DNA of 64,000 nucleotides from an uncultured PS1 clade bacterium (lineage in GTDB: Bacteria; Pseudomonadota; Alphaproteobacteria; MED-G09), in NCBI GenBank assembly GCA_902533755.1, contig CACANC010000001.1:3668-67667 (forward strand). Direction: 5' to 3'. This document shows positions 16,846 to 40,504 of this stretch, piece after piece. Every line of letters begins with the position of its first letter. The stretch's first letter is position 1. Made by a program: the position numbers and the translations under genes. Under the pieces are notes generated by a model that was not told the DNA's origin, did no database searches, and worked only from the letters and a program-made list of their open reading frames with translations.

Positions 16846-18336
16846 ATGAAAAGAAATTTATATAATATAATTTTATTAAATTTGATATCTTTTACTCCGA
16901 TAAAGGTTTTTGCAGGGATTGATGAAAGTATTAATAATTTTCTTGAGCCTGTTTCAAAAGTAGTCTCAAGTATAGTTTTTTATAGTTTACCTCTGGGCTC
17001 AACAAATGTTGAGTTGATTGTAATTTGGTTAATTTTAGGAGGACTTTTTTGTACATTTTACTTTAAATTTGTGAATTTTAGCGCTTTTAGGCATTCTATT
17101 GCCCTTGTTAGCGGTAAATACACAAGCAGTGATTCTTCTGGAGAGGTTTCGCATTTTAAGGCCCTTTCAACTGCATTATCTGGCACTGTAGGTTTAGGAA
17201 ATATTGGCGGTGTTGCAGTTGCAATATCTCTTGGAGGTCCTGGAGCAACATTTTGGATGATATTATCTGGTTTACTTGGGATGTCTCTTAAATTTTGTGA
17301 ATGTACGCTTGGAGTTAAATACAGAAACATAAATCCTGATGGGAGTGTATCTGGTGGTGCAATGTATTATCTTACAAAAGGCTTATCGGAAAAAGGGATG
17401 CCAATTTTAGGAAAATTTTTGGCTTACATGTTTGCTATTTTTTGTGTATTTGCCTCATTGGGCGGTGGAAATATGTTTCAGGTAAATCAATCTTTGGATT
17501 TGATTATCTATGTTTCTGGTGGCCAAGGTGGTTTTTTAGACCTTAATTCATGGGTTTATGGGGTAATTTTTGCATTTCTTTTAGGGGTAGTGATAATTGG
17601 AGGCATAAAAAGGATTGCTGCAGTGACATCAAAATTAGTCCCAAGCATGGCAATAATATATATTATTAGTGCGTTAGTTATATTAATTGTAAATATTGAT
17701 CAAATTCCAATTGCGCTTAAATCTATTTTTGTTGGCGCATTCTCTCCAGAAGGGGTTACAGGTGGATTTTTAGGTGTTTTGATATTGGGCTTTAGAAGGG
17801 CGGTATTCTCTAATGAAGCAGGTATAGGATCTGCACCAATTGCTCATTCAGCAGTTAAAACAAGTGAACCTGCGACAGAAGGTATTGTTTCCTTACTTGA
17901 ACCATTTATAGATACCGTTGTGATTTGCACCATCACAGCTCTTGTAATTATAACAACTGGCGTTTTTACTTCAGGCACTGGCATAGAAGGAGCAAGATTA
18001 ACATCTCAAGCGTTTGGATCAGTTCTACCTTGGTTCCCTTATGTATTAGCTATTGTTGCAATTCTTTTTGCGTTTTCAACAGCTATTTCTTGGTCATATT
18101 ATGGTGTAAAAGCAGTAACATTTATTTTTGGTGAAAAAAAATACATTGAACTCTTGTATAAATTAATTTTTTGTTCATTTGCAATAGTTGGAGCATCTTT
18201 GGACCTTACTAAGGTAATAGACCTATCTGACTCATCTTTATTTTTAATGGCTATACCTAATATTATTGGTGTCTATATTTTAGCCAGTATAGTTAAAAAA
18301 GAATTTTCAGATTATAAACAAAAATACATGAATTAA
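16846..18336 (+). CDS. Sodium:alanine (amino-acid) symporter, AGCS family
   Basis: 496 aa polytopic protein with AGCS family hallmarks (FKALSTALSGTVGLGNIGGVAVAI). Confidence 0.8.
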   Translation: MKRNLYNIILLNLISFTPIKVFAGIDESINNFLEPVSKVVSSIVFYSLPLGSTNVELIVIWLILGGLFCTFYFKFVNFSAFRHSIALVSGKYTSSDSSGEVSHFKALSTALSGTVGLGNIGGVAVAISLGGPGATFWMILSGLLGMSLKFCECTLGVKYRNINPDGSVSGGAMYYLTKGLSEKGMPILGKFLAYMFAIFCVFASLGGGNMFQVNQSLDLIIYVSGGQGGFLDLNSWVYGVIFAFLLGVVIIGGIKRIAAVTSKLVPSMAIIYIISALVILIVNIDQIPIALKSIFVGAFSPEGVTGGFLGVLILGFRRAVFSNEAGIGSAPIAHSAVKTSEPATEGIVSLLEPFIDTVVICTITALVIITTGVFTSGTGIEGARLTSQAFGSVLPWFPYVLAIVAILFAFSTAISWSYYGVKAVTFIFGEKKYIELLYKLIFCSFAIVGASLDLTKVIDLSDSSLFLMAIPNIIGVYILASIVKKEFSDYKQKYMN

Positions 18337-18971
18337 TGTCAAAGCAAAATAATACTCAAGAATTTCCTTCATATATTAATTCATTAAAGGGTTTTATGGA
18401 TCATGATGAAGGTAAATGTCTTAACAAATATGCAATTAAATCATCTGAGTACGGTCCTATTCTTGAAATAGGCTCTTACTGCGGAAAATCAACAATTTAT
18501 ATGGGTCTTGGAGTCAAAGGCAAGAATTGTTGCATTTATTCCATCGATCATCATATGGGATCAGAAGAAAATCAAGTTGGATGGGAATATCATGATTCTG
18601 ATCTTTTTGACGAAGAGACTGGAAAAATAAACTCTTTTCCTGAATTCATGCGTAATCTTCGTAAAGCTGATTTACTGGATACTGTGATACCAATAGTTTC
18701 AGACTCTTCATTGGTATCAAGAAATTGGAAAATACCTCTTTCAATGGTTTTTATAGATGGTGGCCATACAATGGAAACAGCTTTAAATGATTTCAATAAT
18801 TGGAAAGACAAAATTATTAAAGGAGGGATATTAGCAATCCATGATGTTTTTCCAAACCCTGATGATGGCGGTAGACCTCCATACGAAATTTACAAGAAAG
18901 CCTTATCAGAAGGAAATTTTAAAAAAGTTGAAGTTGTTAAATCAATGAGAATATTAGAAAAATTAAATTAG
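18336..18971 (+). CDS. Class I SAM-dependent methyltransferase (O-methyltransferase-like)
   Basis: 211 aa. Gly-rich SAM motif LEIGSYCGKST. ATG overlaps the AGCS stop (TAATG). Confidence 0.6.
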   Translation: MSKQNNTQEFPSYINSLKGFMDHDEGKCLNKYAIKSSEYGPILEIGSYCGKSTIYMGLGVKGKNCCIYSIDHHMGSEENQVGWEYHDSDLFDEETGKINSFPEFMRNLRKADLLDTVIPIVSDSSLVSRNWKIPLSMVFIDGGHTMETALNDFNNWKDKIIKGGILAIHDVFPNPDDGGRPPYEIYKKALSEGNFKKVEVVKSMRILEKLN

Positions 18972-20015
18972 ATTATCATCTAAAAAAATAGAAGAACCTT
19001 TTGAAAAATTATGAAGTGCATCGTAAGCTAAAATAACTGCAGCTGAGGTCCATCCAGGCTTTTCCATCGGCCAAAAAACTTTTTCAGTAACCTGCCTACC
19101 CATCCAATAAGCGCCATCACTATCAATGTAATCATTAATCCAAGACAATAATTCTTTAGCTTCATCTTTTTTTTGAATTTTAATTAAAGCAATAGCAAGT
19201 TCTGCTGTTTCAGCAATAGTAACCCATGGCTGATCCAAAACGCATAAACATCCTTTTTCATTTAGTACATATTTATTCCATTGAGAATTAATTCTTTCTT
19301 CCGCTTTTTTTCCAGCGATTGCTCCACAAAGAACAGGATAATACCAATCCATAGAGAATCTTTTTTTTGATTCCCATGTCTTATCAAAGCTCTCAGGTTT
19401 ATTTTTGATTGCATTTTCTAATTTTTCTAATGACTGAGTCCAATTAGGTCTTTCTTTATTTAATTGTGAGGCGCAATTAATTGCGCAAATGAGACTTTTG
19501 TATATTGAGCAACAACCAGTCAGAAGTGAATCATCTTTTGGTGCTTCAAGACTCTTTGCTGCCCATCTAATTGATCCATCCTTCATTTGATTTTCTATTA
19601 CAAAATTTATAGCTTTTTCTATCATCCCCCAATTATTAGTTAGGTTATCAACTGAATTGTTTATCAGAAAATCATGCCAGCAGGCTGTTGCAATATATGC
19701 CGCAAAATTTGTGTCTCTGAAAAATACTTTTGATTCTATATCTCTATTGATGAAAGTCCCTTTTTTTTCATCTATATCCAATGTGCTTCCAAGCTCTCCT
19801 AACCAAGAGCCATCATTTAATTGATTTTTTTTTAAATAAGAAAAACCTAAGTCAACTTCTTTTGAATATCCAAGAGCATTTAAAGCCATTACGCATTCAA
19901 GATGATTCCAAGCATCAAACACACCGTCTTCAGTCCAAGGTATGCAACCATCCTCTTTTTGCAATAAGATAATTCTTTTTATTGCCCCTTCTAAGTTTTT
20001 AGTTAATGAATTCAT
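18963..20015 (-). CDS. Prenyltransferase / squalene-oxidase-repeat (alpha/alpha-toroid) protein
   Basis: 350 aa with four Q-x-x-DG-(S/C)-W type repeats: QKEDGCIPW, QLNDGSW, QMKDGSIRW, DSDGAYW. These are characteristic of protein-prenyltransferase beta subunit and terpene-cyclase repeats. Confidence 0.5.
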   Translation of the reverse strand: MNSLTKNLEGAIKRIILLQKEDGCIPWTEDGVFDAWNHLECVMALNALGYSKEVDLGFSYLKKNQLNDGSWLGELGSTLDIDEKKGTFINRDIESKVFFRDTNFAAYIATACWHDFLINNSVDNLTNNWGMIEKAINFVIENQMKDGSIRWAAKSLEAPKDDSLLTGCCSIYKSLICAINCASQLNKERPNWTQSLEKLENAIKNKPESFDKTWESKKRFSMDWYYPVLCGAIAGKKAEERINSQWNKYVLNEKGCLCVLDQPWVTIAETAELAIALIKIQKKDEAKELLSWINDYIDSDGAYWMGRQVTEKVFWPMEKPGWTSAAVILAYDALHNFSKGSSIFLDDNLI

Positions 20016-20024
20016 TTGTTTTAA

Positions 20025-20738
20025 TTAATTATATTTTTTGAAGTAAAGAACTATAGATTTTCCCATTAATGGATCAAATAACTTTTCTAAGATACGAGTT
20101 AATAAAGGTCTTTTCATAATATCCCATTCAAGAAAGCTTTTATAAAAATTAACAAATGTATTATCTTCTCTCTTTACTCCAACAAAACATTTAAGCCACC
20201 AGTAAGGAGAATGTAATCCGTGTTTATGTTCTTTTCCTATGTAATTAAAACCATTTTCTAAAAATGCATTCTTTAATTCGGAGTATTTAAAAATTCTTAT
20301 ATGACCTCCAGGTTCATTGTGATAATCATCTGATAAAAGCCAACAAATTTTCTCTGGTAACCATCTTGGAACAGAAACGCCTATACTGGCCCCTGGTTTT
20401 GATATTCTATATATTTCATTAATAACATTCTCATAATCATATATATGTTCTAATACTTCCGAACATATTATGTGATCAAAAGTATTATCTTTAAACGGCA
20501 ATTGAAGTGCAGTTCCAGCCATTAAGCTAAATTTTCTATCACTTGATTCATTAATGTCAGGGTATTGTTGAAATCCTTGGTAAGTATGTTTCAATTCTTC
20601 TAATGAGAGATCTAAACCTATTACATGACATTTGCTATAATAATAAAGTTTATGTATGTGACGGCCTTTTCCGCAACCAAGGTCTAATATTTTTGAGCCA
20701 TCAACAATATTTAATTTATGAAGATCAATTGTTAGCAT
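20025..20738 (-). CDS. Class I SAM-dependent methyltransferase
   Basis: 237 aa. Motif I ILDLGCGKGRH and Methyltransf_11-like acidic post-I residue. Confidence 0.7.
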   Translation of the reverse strand: MLTIDLHKLNIVDGSKILDLGCGKGRHIHKLYYYSKCHVIGLDLSLEELKHTYQGFQQYPDINESSDRKFSLMAGTALQLPFKDNTFDHIICSEVLEHIYDYENVINEIYRISKPGASIGVSVPRWLPEKICWLLSDDYHNEPGGHIRIFKYSELKNAFLENGFNYIGKEHKHGLHSPYWWLKCFVGVKREDNTFVNFYKSFLEWDIMKRPLLTRILEKLFDPLMGKSIVLYFKKYN

Positions 20739-21990
20739 TAATTATAGCCTCTTTATAAACATCAACAAGCTCTCTTGCGGCTCTTTCCCATGTGAATTTA
20801 TCTAAAACTCTTTCTCTACCCATTTTTCCATATACTAATCTCTTTTCTTCATCATCAAGTAATTCTTTGATACCCTGATATAGAGAAAGGGGGTCCGAAT
20901 GATTTACAATTATTCCTGCATCGCCAACAACCTCAGGTAAAGACCCTCCATTAGTTGAAACTAAAGGTATTCCACAAGACATGGCTTCTCCTGCGGGAAA
21001 GCCAAAACCTTCATAAACGGAAGGTGAAACAGCTATTGTTGACTCTGCATAAAGTTGAGCAATTTCTTCACTTGTTAAATCGCTTACAAACTTTACTTTT
21101 TCTCTAATTCCTTTTTTGTCTAGCTCTTTTGATGTTGGGCCTTCTCTTAATTTTCCTATAACAACAAGTTGAAGTTCAGGAAAATCTTTTAATAGTAAAT
21201 CGTACGCACGAATTAAATATATTAATCCTTTCAAAGGAACATCAGCGCTTGCAGTGGTAATTAATTGATTGGGTTTCCTTTTGATTTTTTCGATAGGACA
21301 GAATGTAAGATGGTCAATTCCATGAAGAACCTTCCTTGTTTTGTTAATGTCAATTTTAAAATCTCTTGCTAGATCTTTTCTTGTATTTTCTGAAACTACA
21401 ATAATCGGGTCTAATTTTCTTGCGACCTTCATTTGCATATTTAAAAAGCTATACCATCTCCACTTTAGAATTTTTAATGATATTGTTTCAGCATGTTTTA
21501 TATCTATCTTTTTATCCATTGTAATAGGGTGATGAATCGTACCAACAACCGGTACACCCATTTTTTTTAGTTTTAAAAGACCATAAGCTAATGTTTGATT
21601 GTCATGGACAACATCAAAATTAGAGTAATTTAATTTTGCCCATTCTGCCATTCTTTCTCCAAATGTATATGGTTCAGAAAAACCACCAGTTAAGTGGCTA
21701 ACCCATTCGTGAAGGTCAATTTTATTTTTAAATAATCTTAAATTAAATGCTTTTATTGGATTGTCATAGGAATAGAGATCAAGTGAAGGAAGTTTAGTAA
21801 GTTTTACACCTTCATCCAAGATTGGGTAAGGTTGACCAGATACAACTTCTACTTTATGGCCAAGATCTCTCATTGCTTTTGTAACAAGCCTCATATAGAT
21901 ACCTTGTCCTCCAGTATAGGGGTGGCTTCTATAGCTGGGCATAAGTATGCTTAAAGGTCTATCATTCAGCCTATTTATCTTTTCATTCAT
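20725..21990 (-). CDS. Glycosyltransferase family 4 (GT-B, retaining)
   Basis: 421 aa. C-terminal EGFGFPAGEAMSCGIPLVSTNGGSLPEVV matches the GT4 EX7E region. Overlaps the downstream methyltransferase. Confidence 0.75.
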   Translation of the reverse strand: MNEKINRLNDRPLSILMPSYRSHPYTGGQGIYMRLVTKAMRDLGHKVEVVSGQPYPILDEGVKLTKLPSLDLYSYDNPIKAFNLRLFKNKIDLHEWVSHLTGGFSEPYTFGERMAEWAKLNYSNFDVVHDNQTLAYGLLKLKKMGVPVVGTIHHPITMDKKIDIKHAETISLKILKWRWYSFLNMQMKVARKLDPIIVVSENTRKDLARDFKIDINKTRKVLHGIDHLTFCPIEKIKRKPNQLITTASADVPLKGLIYLIRAYDLLLKDFPELQLVVIGKLREGPTSKELDKKGIREKVKFVSDLTSEEIAQLYAESTIAVSPSVYEGFGFPAGEAMSCGIPLVSTNGGSLPEVVGDAGIIVNHSDPLSLYQGIKELLDDEEKRLVYGKMGRERVLDKFTWERAARELVDVYKEAIINANN

Positions 21991-22119
21991 ATTTTATTTC
22001 TTTTATTCTTAAAATTCAGCAGTTCGAGGTTTTTAATTATTAAAATAATCCTTGTAAATAGATAGGTTTTTTCGCTAAAAGGCATAATAAAGAATCAATT
22101 TGTAGAGGTAAAATTATTA

Positions 22120-40416: not shown

Positions 40417-40504
40417 GCGGACATGGTGGAATTGGTAGACACATCAGACTTAAAATCTGAAGGAGATTATCTCCGTCCCGGTTCGAGTCCGGGTGTCCGC
40501 ACCA
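40417..40504 (+). tRNA. tRNA-Leu (anticodon UAA), class II with long variable arm
   Basis: Folded by hand. 7-bp acceptor stem gcggaca/tgtccgc, 3-bp D stem, anticodon stem tcaga/tctga with loop cuUAAaa, variable arm ggaga-ttat-ctcc, T arm cccgg-ttcgagt-ccggg, and encoded CCA. Confidence 0.85.

What the first reader, a model, noticed from the sequence alone, without database searches (positions are those of the whole stretch)
18336..21990. GT4 glycosyltransferase, methyltransferase and prenyltransferase-repeat protein operon, convergent with a second methyltransferase
The minus-strand genes overlap (GT4/MT by 14 nt), indicating co-transcription. The 350-aa protein carries four Q-x-x-D-G-(S/C)-W repeats of the prenyltransferase/squalene-cyclase α/α-toroid type. 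It is too short for a class II terpene cyclase and unexpected as a protein prenyltransferase β-subunit in a free-living bacterium. Together with a GT4 and two SAM methyltransferases, this suggests an undescribed envelope glycolipid or isoprenoid-linked modification, or a peptide-modification system.
Basis: partly seen in the sequence, partly recalled or inferred. Interest (0 to 1): 0.6.

Follow-up and report, generated by a model that had tools for sequence, protein, structure and literature searches.

The report
Mycobacterial-type methylmannose polysaccharide genes in marine bacterium
These four genes are full-length counterparts of the mycobacterial gene set that makes and recycles an intracellular methylated mannose polymer (MMP); the 'prenyltransferase-like' protein is really the polymer-cutting enzyme, and the same set turns up in many marine and soil Proteobacteria, where I found no report of it.

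Summary
They are homologues of the mycobacterial 3-O-methylmannose polysaccharide (MMP) cluster:
- GT4 = ManT, the alpha-(1->4)-mannosyltransferase (PDB 7QSG, E 2.6e-88).
- The 237-aa methyltransferase = putative MeT3 (44% identity to the Mycolicibacterium protein).
- The 350-aa protein = MmpH, the MMP endo-mannosidase (7QSJ, E 2.5e-66; predicted structure TM 0.88-0.90).
- The convergent methyltransferase = MeT1, the 1-O-methyltransferase (6G7D, E 1e-58).

Gene order and orientation match a Mycolicibacterium genome, down to the convergent MeT1 whose 3' end overlaps mmpH. Of 80 proteobacterial loci, 70 carry all four genes and 62 keep the same arrangement. These include OCS116 (the window's lineage), other Parvibaculales, Caulobacterales, Sphingomonadales, Halieaceae and SAR86. 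MmpH residues D47 and E262 and five ManT catalytic or donor-binding residues are invariant. dN/dS is 0.05-0.13.

The prenyl, isoprenoid, envelope and peptide ideas are not supported.

The system is known. Its occurrence outside Actinobacteria is not reported in the searchable literature and is unexpected, because MMP function has been tied to mycobacterial fatty-acid metabolism. No product has been shown in any proteobacterium. Two residues, MmpH D50 (Asn here) and ManT D293 (Ser here), differ from the mycobacterial enzymes.

The parts
20725..21990 (-). ManT-like GT4 glycosyltransferase (421 aa), homologue of the MMP alpha-(1->4)-mannosyltransferase
   Evidence: PDB 7QSG (M. hassiacum ManT) E 2.6e-88 over residues 13-417; the next GT4 structure scores 2e-16. 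42% identity, E 3.8e-101 to the Mycolicibacterium ManT in L081. G27, H153, K254, E327, G328, F329 and E335 correspond to ManT G15, H142, K240, E313, G314, F315 and E321 and are invariant in the proteobacterial homologues aligned at each column, 75-78 sequences. S307 replaces D293.
20025..20738 (-). MeT3-like class I SAM methyltransferase (237 aa), homologue of the putative MMP 3-O-methyltransferase
   Evidence: Methyltransf_11/23/31/25. 44% identity over 236 aa, E 1.7e-80, to the gene between manT and mmpH in Mycolicibacterium L081. Present in 79 of 80 proteobacterial loci directly upstream of mmpH. Occurs fused to MmpH in P0267 and P0299. Its start overlaps the manT stop by 14 nt.
18963..20015 (-).
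   Evidence: PDB 7QSJ E 2.5e-66; squalene-hopene cyclase scores only E 0.87. AlphaFold model pLDDT 90.4; Foldseek top hit 7QSJ with TM 0.88-0.90, E 1.6e-30. D34, W36, N103, F104, T166, M222, Y226, E269, E272 and W322 correspond to MmpH D47, W49, N101, F102, T163, M215, Y219, E262, E265 and W315. N37 replaces D50.
18336..18971 (+). MeT1-like Methyltransf_24 methyltransferase (211 aa), homologue of the MMP 1-O-methyltransferase; convergent, with its 3' end overlapping mmpH by 9 nt
   Evidence: PDB 6G7D/6G80/6H40 (M. hassiacum MeT1) E 1e-58 over residues 14-209; the next PDB hit scores 2.6e-4. 46% identity, E 1e-70 to Mycolicibacterium MeT1. Convergent and immediately downstream of mmpH in 62 of 80 loci and in Mycolicibacterium.
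21991..22119 (.). Intergenic region between manT and the divergent 2Fe-2S ferredoxin gene; probable promoter region of the manT-meT3-mmpH operon (inferred only)
   Evidence: It is the only non-coding stretch upstream of the three tightly packed minus-strand genes. One weak sigma-70-like match lies at 22112-22084 (-), but the scan found fewer sites than in shuffled sequence, so this is not evidence of function.

Best explanation
The locus is the proteobacterial counterpart of the mycobacterial MMP biosynthesis and recycling cluster. By homology, ManT extends short alpha-(1->4)-oligomannosides with mannose from a nucleotide sugar (GDP-mannose in mycobacteria). MeT3 methylates the 3-OH of the added mannoses with SAM. 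MeT1 caps the reducing-end 1-OH with a methyl group. MmpH, an inverting (alpha/alpha)6 endo-mannosidase, cuts mature chains into defined oligomers that prime new chains; the mycobacterial work calls this 'partially conservative replication'. The product would be a soluble cytoplasmic polymethylated polysaccharide that can wrap hydrophobic chains.

Shown here: homology of all four proteins, identical gene architecture, conserved catalytic residues, purifying selection, and wide conserved synteny in Proteobacteria. Inferred: the enzyme activities, the sugar donor, the chemical identity of the product, and its physiological role. That role cannot be modulation of a type I fatty-acid synthase, which is mycobacterial, if (from general knowledge, not tested here) OCS116 uses only dissociated FAS-II. 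Binding of acyl chains or other lipids, or cold adaptation, are the leading guesses.
For: Specific hits to the three solved MMP enzymes, with very large gaps to the next structures: 7QSJ 2.5e-66 against 0.87; 6G7D 1e-58 against 2.6e-4; 7QSG 2.6e-88 against 2e-16. All four proteins align full-length with the four genes of a Mycolicibacterium locus (37-46% identity, E 1e-70 to 4e-101), and that locus has the same order, the same orientation and the same convergent overlapping MeT1. The structure model matches MmpH at TM 0.88-0.90. The mutationally validated residues MmpH D47 and E262 and ManT K240, E313 and E321, plus ManT G15 and H142, are invariant across the proteobacterial homologues aligned at each column, 75-81 sequences (residues taken from PMC9883506). 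Synteny: 70 of 80 loci have all four genes and 62 of 80 are canonical. No fifth gene is universally linked. Natural MeT3-MmpH fusion proteins exist. dN/dS is 0.05-0.13 against the nearest OCS116 genome. There are no transmembrane segments, and the flanking genes are unrelated.
Against: No MMP or similar polymer has been reported from any proteobacterium in the searchable literature. ManT D293, proposed to contact the guanine of GDP-mannose, is Ser here and varies across Proteobacteria (T 34, D 11, S 7, G 7, R 5), so the donor is not certain. MmpH D50, whose Ala variant loses most activity, is Asn here and in all 36 alphaproteobacterial homologues, which also carry a loop 10-15 residues longer next to the substrate-binding Asn-Phe. 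The 3-O-methyltransferase activity of pMeT3 is still only putative even in mycobacteria (PMC9883506). No GDP-mannose pyrophosphorylase motif was found in the 64-kb window, and the rest of the genome could not be searched. The proposed mycobacterial role (sequestering FAS-I products) has no obvious counterpart here.
Confidence: 0.75

Rival explanations
1. The cluster makes a related but chemically different methylated oligo- or polysaccharide (a different sugar, linkage, chain length or methylation pattern), using the same four-enzyme logic of polymerise, methylate, cap and recycle.
For: The guanine-contacting ManT D293 is not conserved. The alphaproteobacterial MmpH subtype has Asn for D50 and a 25-29-residue loop, against 14 in the Mycolicibacterium protein (L081), adjacent to the subsite residues Asn-Phe. 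Identity to the mycobacterial enzymes is only 37-46%. In many Halieaceae loci, rmlB- and rmlD-like genes lie about 5 kb from the cluster. Streptomyces griseus already makes an acetylated variant (PMC9883506).
Against: All other mapped sugar- and substrate-binding residues of MmpH and ManT are invariant or nearly so. [quoted passage not shown] The rml genes are lineage-specific neighbours, not adjacent to the cluster, and absent from the window.
Confidence: 0.2
2. One reading: the 350-aa protein is a prenyltransferase or terpene-cyclase-type enzyme and the quartet builds an isoprenoid-linked envelope glycolipid or modifies a peptide.
For: Sub-threshold Pfam and NCBIfam hits to squalene-hopene cyclase (17.5 bits against a 26.1 cut-off). 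NCBI names homologues 'prenyltransferase'. The protein shares the alpha/alpha-barrel architecture; drimenyl diphosphate synthase appears at rank 12 of the fold search.
Against: The best sequence and structure match is a characterised glycoside hydrolase. The terpene synthase matches are weak (TM about 0.55, E about 1e-6). There is no DxDD or DDxxD motif. The MmpH acid and base residues are conserved. No precursor peptide, polyprenol-phosphate transferase, flippase or exporter is linked in 80 loci.
Confidence: 0.02
3. The genes form a catabolic or salvage system for methylated mannans taken up from the environment, rather than a biosynthetic system.
For: MmpH is a hydrolase. [quoted passage not shown]
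Against: The hydrolase is always coupled to a GT4 polymerase and two SAM methyltransferases, which are anabolic enzymes. All four proteins are cytoplasmic, and no linked sugar transporter or demethylase is conserved. In mycobacteria, loss of MmpH abolishes MMP synthesis (PMC9883506).
Confidence: 0.03

Closest known systems
Mycobacterial MMP (3-O-methylmannose polysaccharide) gene cluster manT-pmeT3-mmpH-meT1 (Ripoll-Rozada et al. 2019 PNAS; Maranha et al. 2023 Commun Biol, PMC9883506)
   Same: All four proteins are full-length homologues (37-46% identity). Gene order, orientation and overlaps are identical, including the convergent MeT1. The validated MmpH residues (D47, E262) and ManT residues (K240, E313, E321), plus ManT G15 and H142, are conserved. 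The proteins are soluble and cytoplasmic.
   Different: The host is a low-GC marine alphaproteobacterium (OCS116) rather than an actinobacterium. MmpH D50 is Asn and a loop is 15 residues longer. ManT D293 is Ser. The meT1 start overlaps the stop of a Na+/alanine symporter gene. The product has not been demonstrated.
GH15 / GH125 (clan GH-L) (alpha/alpha)6 inverting glycoside hydrolases, e.g. Arthrobacter glucodextranase 1ULV
   Same: Same (alpha/alpha)6 barrel. The catalytic base position (E262 equivalent) is conserved. Weak NCBIfam hit to 'oligosaccharide amylase', and JGI labels some homologues GH15.
   Different: Sequence similarity is negligible (28.6 bits against a cut-off of 820.7). The fold matches are much weaker than to MmpH (E about 1e-7, TM 0.6-0.7). 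According to PMC9883506, MmpH lacks the -1 subsite Arg/Asp pair of GH15 and GH125 and acts in endo fashion.
Prenyltransferase / squalene-hopene cyclase repeat proteins (PF00432, PF13243, PF13249)
   Same: Alpha/alpha-barrel architecture, and DG(S/C/A)-x(0-2)-W motifs that resemble QW repeats.
   Different: Below the Pfam threshold. No DxDD or DDxxD motif. Structurally far closer to glycoside hydrolases.
Mycobacterial MGLP (6-O-methylglucose lipopolysaccharide) system, from general knowledge of the field and the introduction of PMC9883506
   Same: The same concept: a cytoplasmic polymethylated polysaccharide.
   Different: The sugar differs (alpha-1,4-glucan rather than mannan). The genes are unrelated apart from generic enzyme classes. 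No homology was tested here.

Membership tests
MMP biosynthesis gene cluster | Four contiguous genes encoding ManT, pMeT3, MmpH and MeT1 homologues | tested here: met
   E 2.6e-88 (ManT), 1.7e-80 (MeT3 against Mycolicibacterium), 2.5e-66 (MmpH), 1e-58 (MeT1).
MMP biosynthesis gene cluster | Conserved arrangement manT>meT3>mmpH with meT1 convergent | tested here: met
   The window is identical to Mycolicibacterium L081. The same arrangement is found in 62 of 80 proteobacterial loci.
MMP biosynthesis gene cluster | MmpH catalytic base E262 and candidate acid D47 | tested here: met
   E269 and D34 in the window; invariant in 81 of 81 proteobacterial sequences.
MMP biosynthesis gene cluster | MmpH D50 (second candidate acid or sugar-recognition residue; the D50A variant is nearly inactive) | tested here: not met
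   N37 in the window. Asn in 36 of 36 alpha-type sequences and Asp in 39 of 44 gamma/other sequences. A conservative, lineage-wide substitution, so its functional consequence is unknown.
MMP biosynthesis gene cluster | MmpH subsite residues W49, N101, F102, T163, M215, Y219, E265, W315 | tested here: met
   All are identical in the window protein (W36, N103, F104, T166, M222, Y226, E272, W322). In the family they are invariant or nearly so.
MMP biosynthesis gene cluster | ManT GT-B catalytic and donor residues G15, H142, K240, E313, E321 | tested here: met
   G27, H153, K254, E327 and E335 in the window; invariant in the family.
MMP biosynthesis gene cluster | ManT guanine-recognising D293 (GDP-mannose specificity, inferred from PimA D253) | tested here: not met
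   S307 in the window. The column is variable in Proteobacteria (T 34, D 11, S 7, G 7, R 5). Donor specificity is therefore unresolved.
MMP biosynthesis gene cluster | MeT1 active-site and metal-binding residues | not testable with these tools
   The 2019 PNAS paper that defines them is not held. Only overall conservation could be shown: 46% identity, and 40 positions at least 97% conserved, including the DHHxGSEE, IDGGH and IHD motifs.
MMP biosynthesis gene cluster | Product is alpha-(1->4)-linked 3-O-methylmannose, 11-14 units, with a methyl aglycon | not testable with these tools
   This requires chemistry on cells or on recombinant enzymes.
MMP biosynthesis gene cluster | Host can supply GDP-mannose | tested here: inconclusive
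   No ManC-type GGxGxRLWP motif occurs in the 64-kb window.
Prenyltransferase / squalene cyclase repeat family | Pfam PF00432, PF13243 or PF13249 above the gathering score | tested here: not met
   PF13243 scores 17.5 bits against 26.1; PF00432 and PF13249 are not reported.
Prenyltransferase / squalene cyclase repeat family | Catalytic DxDD (class II cyclase) or DDxxD motif | tested here: not met
   Neither motif is present.
Prenyltransferase / squalene cyclase repeat family | Closest structures are terpene cyclases or prenyltransferase beta subunits | tested here: not met
   The top hit is MmpH, followed by glycoside hydrolases. The first terpene synthase is at rank 12 with TM 0.56.
GH15 glucoamylase family | Sequence membership (NCBIfam TIGR01577 or the GH15 profile) | tested here: not met
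   28.6 bits against a cut-off of 820.7. Only the fold is shared.

The most novel reading that the evidence does not exclude
Polymethylated mannose polysaccharides are not an actinobacterial speciality. They would be a widespread cytoplasmic polymer of marine and soil Proteobacteria (OCS116, Parvibaculales, Halieaceae/OM60, SAR86, Teredinibacter) and of some Desulfobacterota. Their primary role would be independent of type I fatty-acid synthase, for example a general chaperone for hydrophobic ligands or a cold-adaptation factor. Alphaproteobacteria would use a distinct MmpH subtype (Asn for Asp50 plus a longer loop) that may set a different fragment or chain length. Such polymers could also contribute to the methyl-sugar fraction of marine dissolved organic matter.
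Probability: 0.35. Interest if true: 0.65.

Novelty: new member of a known kind. Interest (0 to 1): 0.5.

Why it matters
MMP is treated in the literature as a peculiarity of nontuberculous mycobacteria, with a variant in Streptomyces. Its proposed function, sequestering long acyl-CoAs made by FAS-I, is tied to mycobacterial lipid metabolism. The published genomic survey looked only at Actinobacteria (PMC9883506).

A complete, selectively maintained MMP cluster with identical architecture, found in at least several hundred proteobacterial species genomes including abundant marine clades, has four consequences:
- The question 'what is MMP for?' can be tested in simpler organisms that do not depend on FAS-I, some of which are cultured (Teredinibacter turnerae, Congregibacter, Halioglobus).
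- It corrects a systematic 'prenyltransferase' misannotation.
- Natural D/N variation at MmpH position 50, with D47 invariant, argues that D47 is the catalytic acid, which the structural paper left open.
- It identifies a possible bacterial source of methylated sugars in the ocean.

Tried and rejected
- Pfam and NCBIfam on the 350-aa protein gave only sub-threshold squalene-cyclase and 'oligosaccharide amylase' hits, which do not decide the question.
- The PNAS 2019 MeT1 paper could not be retrieved by DOI or by two PMC ids, so MeT1 active-site residues could not be mapped.
- The promoter and terminator scan was uninformative: fewer promoter-like sites than in shuffles, and no terminator between the genes.
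- A motif scan for GDP-mannose pyrophosphorylase in the window found nothing.
- Neighbour clustering across 80 loci found no fifth universally linked gene. Several large 'families' were antisense shadow ORFs in high-GC genomes. The Halieaceae neighbours (rmlB/D-like, KdtA-like, TolC-like) are lineage-specific.
- P0290, a 740-aa protein with a C-terminal MmpH domain, was tested as a possible ManT fusion and is not one.
- tRNA and Rfam scans of the window showed only one tRNA-Leu, unrelated to the finding.
- Horizontal transfer into this genome was considered and rejected as a recent event. The cluster's GC content equals the window's (0.323 against 0.325), and the flanks are syntenic with other OCS116 and Parvibaculales genomes.

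Full report
OBSERVATION. The GT4 gene and the methyltransferase gene overlap by 14 nt. The methyltransferase gene and the 350-aa gene are 9 nt apart. The two convergent genes overlap by 9 nt at their 3' ends. Pfam confirms a GT4 glycosyltransferase and two class I SAM methyltransferases of different subfamilies, Methyltransf_11-like and Methyltransf_24. The 'four QxxDG(S/C)W repeats' are only loosely there: one exact copy, two with a two-residue insertion and one lacking the Gln. The only Pfam hit of the 350-aa protein is a sub-threshold match to the squalene-hopene cyclase C-terminal domain, 17.5 bits against a cut-off of 26.1.

WHAT IT IS. Comparison with all PDB sequences identified three of the four proteins, each with a very large gap to the next hit.
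- The 350-aa protein matches 7QSJ, 'methylmannose polysaccharide hydrolase MmpH', at E 2.5e-66. Squalene-hopene cyclase scores E 0.87.
- The plus-strand methyltransferase matches 6G7D/6G80/6H40, the M. hassiacum 1-O-methyltransferase MeT1, at E 1e-58. The next hit scores 2.6e-4.
- The GT4 matches 7QSG, M. hassiacum ManT, at E 2.6e-88. The next GT4 scores 2e-16.
- The 237-aa methyltransferase has only generic hits, as expected, because the putative MMP 3-O-methyltransferase has no solved structure.

To test that fourth protein, I retrieved a Mycolicibacterium locus through a mycobacterial MmpH orthologue. It encodes ManT (+), a 241-aa methyltransferase (+, overlapping), MmpH (+, overlapping) and a convergent Methyltransf_24 gene whose 3' end overlaps mmpH. 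This is the same architecture as the window. BLASTP of window against Mycolicibacterium proteins gives ManT 42% (E 4e-101), MeT3 44% over 236 aa (E 2e-80), MmpH 37% (E 3e-77) and MeT1 46% (E 1e-70), with no cross-hits. These four genes are the published MMP cluster (Maranha et al. 2023, PMC9883506). An AlphaFold2 model of the 350-aa protein (pLDDT 90.4, pTM 0.91) superposes on 7QSJ with TM 0.88-0.90 (E 1.6e-30). All following hits are (alpha/alpha)6 glycoside hydrolases at E about 1e-7. The first terpene synthase is at rank 12 with TM 0.56.

CATALYTIC RESIDUES. I used the residues that PMC9883506 defined by structure and mutagenesis. In MmpH, E262 (the catalytic base; E262A is dead) and D47 (a candidate acid) correspond to E269 and D34. 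Both are invariant in 81 proteobacterial sequences. The subsite residues W49, N101, F102, T163, M215, Y219, E265 and W315 are all identical in the window protein. The exception is D50. It is Asn (N37) here and in all 36 alpha-type sequences, but Asp in 39 of 44 gamma/other sequences. The alpha-type proteins also have a 25-29-residue loop where the Mycolicibacterium (L081) sequence has 14 and the gammaproteobacterial sequences 14-16. This loop lies directly before the Asn-Phe subsite pair. In ManT, G15, H142, K240, E313, G314, F315 and E321 are invariant. D293, proposed by analogy with PimA to read the guanine of GDP-mannose, is Ser here and variable in Proteobacteria. MeT1 and MeT3 each have 40 or more positions that are at least 97% conserved from Mycolicibacterium to Proteobacteria. 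The paper defining MeT1's active site was not retrievable.

DISTRIBUTION AND SYNTENY.
- The closest genomes are two OCS116-cluster single-cell genomes (88% and 62% amino-acid identity). The window is about 90% nucleotide-identical to AG-430-B22 with the same flanking genes, so the window comes from an OCS116 (Parvibaculales) marine alphaproteobacterium.
- The other 78 best loci come from these groups:
  - Parvibaculales: Parvibaculum, Parvibaculaceae, Rhodobiaceae and Tepidicaulis.
  - Other Alphaproteobacteria: Phenylobacterium, Henriciella, Sphingomonas and Novosphingobium.
  - Gammaproteobacteria: many Halieaceae (Halioglobus, Haliea, Congregibacter, Luminiphilus, Pseudohalioglobus, Seongchinamella) and SAR86.
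- Searching these loci with all four window proteins shows that 70 of 80 carry all four genes. In 62 of 80 the order is ManT > MeT3 > MmpH with MeT1 convergent within 700 nt. In 8 loci MeT1 is displaced by 1-5 kb. Most of the remaining loci are cut by contig ends, and three (L027, L029, L036) lack MeT1 within the flank.
- Clustering of all flanking ORFs found no fifth universally linked gene.
- An exhaustive profile search of 1.84 billion representative proteins gives 474 clusters (at 50% identity) with E <= 1e-30. Named members include Teredinibacter turnerae T7901, Desulfovermiculus, a Thermodesulfobacteriota MAG, Acidimicrobiales and Phycicoccus.
- Two representatives, P0267 and P0299, are natural MeT3-MmpH fusions. 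The P0299 N-terminal half is 41% identical to the window MeT3 over its full length. This is independent evidence that these activities work together.
- Identities among Mycolicibacterium, Alpha- and Gammaproteobacteria are all about 42-47% for each of the four proteins. The cluster therefore behaves as one co-evolving unit in three roughly equidistant lineages.
- In this genome it is not a recent arrival. Its GC content equals the window's (0.323 against 0.325), its flanks are syntenic within Parvibaculales, and all four genes are under purifying selection (dN/dS 0.05-0.13 against L001).

MECHANISM. Shown: the homology, architecture, residue conservation, selection and synteny described above. 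Inferred by homology to the biochemically characterised mycobacterial enzymes (PMC9883506):
- ManT elongates alpha-(1->4)-oligomannosides from a nucleotide sugar.
- MeT3 3-O-methylates the chain.
- MeT1 methylates the reducing-end 1-OH.
- MmpH cleaves mature chains internally into oligomers that serve as primers for new chains.

None of the four proteins has a transmembrane segment or a signal-peptide-like N-terminus. The flanking genes are unrelated: a MatE transporter, an ABC importer, a Na+/alanine symporter, a 2Fe-2S ferredoxin, a flavoprotein reductase, VWA and AAA proteins, and DksA. The product is therefore expected to be cytoplasmic, as in mycobacteria. In mycobacteria MMP is proposed to bind acyl-CoAs and modulate fatty-acid synthesis, and an MMP-negative mutant grows more slowly at 15 degrees C. 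From general knowledge, Proteobacteria use dissociated FAS-II, so the FAS-I-linked rationale should not apply, and the role here is open.

RIVALS. The main rival is a chemically different methylated glycan. This is possible because ManT D293 and MmpH D50 differ and the alpha-type loop is longer; I give it about 0.2. A purely catabolic role is unlikely, given the obligatory coupling to a polymerase and two methyltransferases.

COMPARISON AND NOVELTY. The system is a member of a known kind, the MMP cluster, with two lineage-specific residue differences that leave donor specificity and cleavage pattern open. The published survey of the cluster was restricted to Actinobacteria. Five full-text searches found no paper reporting it, or MMP itself, in Proteobacteria. 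This shows absence from the searchable library, not proof of absence. NCBI labels the proteobacterial homologues 'prenyltransferase' or 'hypothetical' and labels the mycobacterial orthologues 'prenyltransferase'. JGI labels proteobacterial homologues 'GH15' or 'hypothetical' and some of the closest matches to the mycobacterial enzyme 'MMP endo-(1,4)-3-O-methyl-alpha-D-mannosidase'.

One by-product concerns the catalytic acid. D47 is invariant, while position 50 alternates between Asp and Asn across lineages under purifying selection. This favours D47 as the catalytic acid, a point the structural paper left open.

VERDICT. The locus is an MMP-type polymethylated polysaccharide biosynthesis and recycling cluster in an OCS116 marine alphaproteobacterium. 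Interest is moderate (0.5): this is not a new kind of system, but it extends one thought to be specific to actinobacteria into abundant Proteobacteria, and cultured carriers make it directly testable.

Noticed in passing
window 18334-18338 (stop of the gene at 16846-18336 and start of meT1 at 18336): The MeT1 start codon overlaps the stop codon of the upstream Na+/alanine symporter gene (TAATG). The symporter-meT1 adjacency is conserved in both OCS116 genomes (L001, L002). In this lineage meT1 is therefore probably co-transcribed with an amino-acid transporter rather than having its own promoter.
   Followed up: partly
P0267 (590 aa) and P0299 (606 aa), from the representative search: These are natural fusion proteins with an N-terminal MeT3-like methyltransferase and a C-terminal MmpH domain. 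Their source organisms are unknown. P0280 (519 aa) and P0290 (740 aa) carry N-terminal extensions with no Pfam hit, and the P0290 extension is not ManT-like.
   Followed up: partly
window 19713-19802 (MmpH residues about 72-100) and codon N37 (19905-19907); L001-L029, L037, L040, L044, L045, L058, L064, L078: Alphaproteobacterial MmpH forms a distinct subtype. It has Asn instead of Asp50 (36 of 36) and a 25-29-residue loop, against 14-16, directly before the substrate-binding Asn-Phe. Gammaproteobacterial proteins resemble the mycobacterial form. Model confidence in the loop is lower (pLDDT 70-77).
   Followed up: partly
L030-L080 (Halieaceae and relatives), about 3-6 kb either side of the cluster: Many gammaproteobacterial loci carry rmlB-like and rmlD-like (dTDP-rhamnose pathway) genes upstream, and KdtA-like and TolC-like genes downstream of the cluster, in 22-32 loci each. 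This is probably lineage-specific synteny with an LPS region, but it could bear on which sugar is used.
   Followed up: partly
L027, L029, L036: Three proteobacterial loci have ManT, MeT3 and MmpH but no MeT1 within the 8-kb downstream flank. Either meT1 lies elsewhere in those genomes or they make an uncapped polymer.
   Followed up: no
database annotations: NCBI and UniRef name MmpH orthologues 'prenyltransferase' or 'prenyltransferase/squalene oxidase repeat-containing protein', even in Mycolicibacterium where the function is experimentally known. One entry reads 'phenyltransferase domain-containing protein'. The label is propagating as a misannotation.
   Followed up: yes
window 1-64000: The window is compact, housekeeping-rich chromosome at about 32% GC, carrying RecA-like and probable AlaS genes, DksA, and a single tRNA-Leu(TAA) at 40417-40504. 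There are no Rfam hits other than the tRNA, and no compositional island around the cluster.
   Followed up: partly
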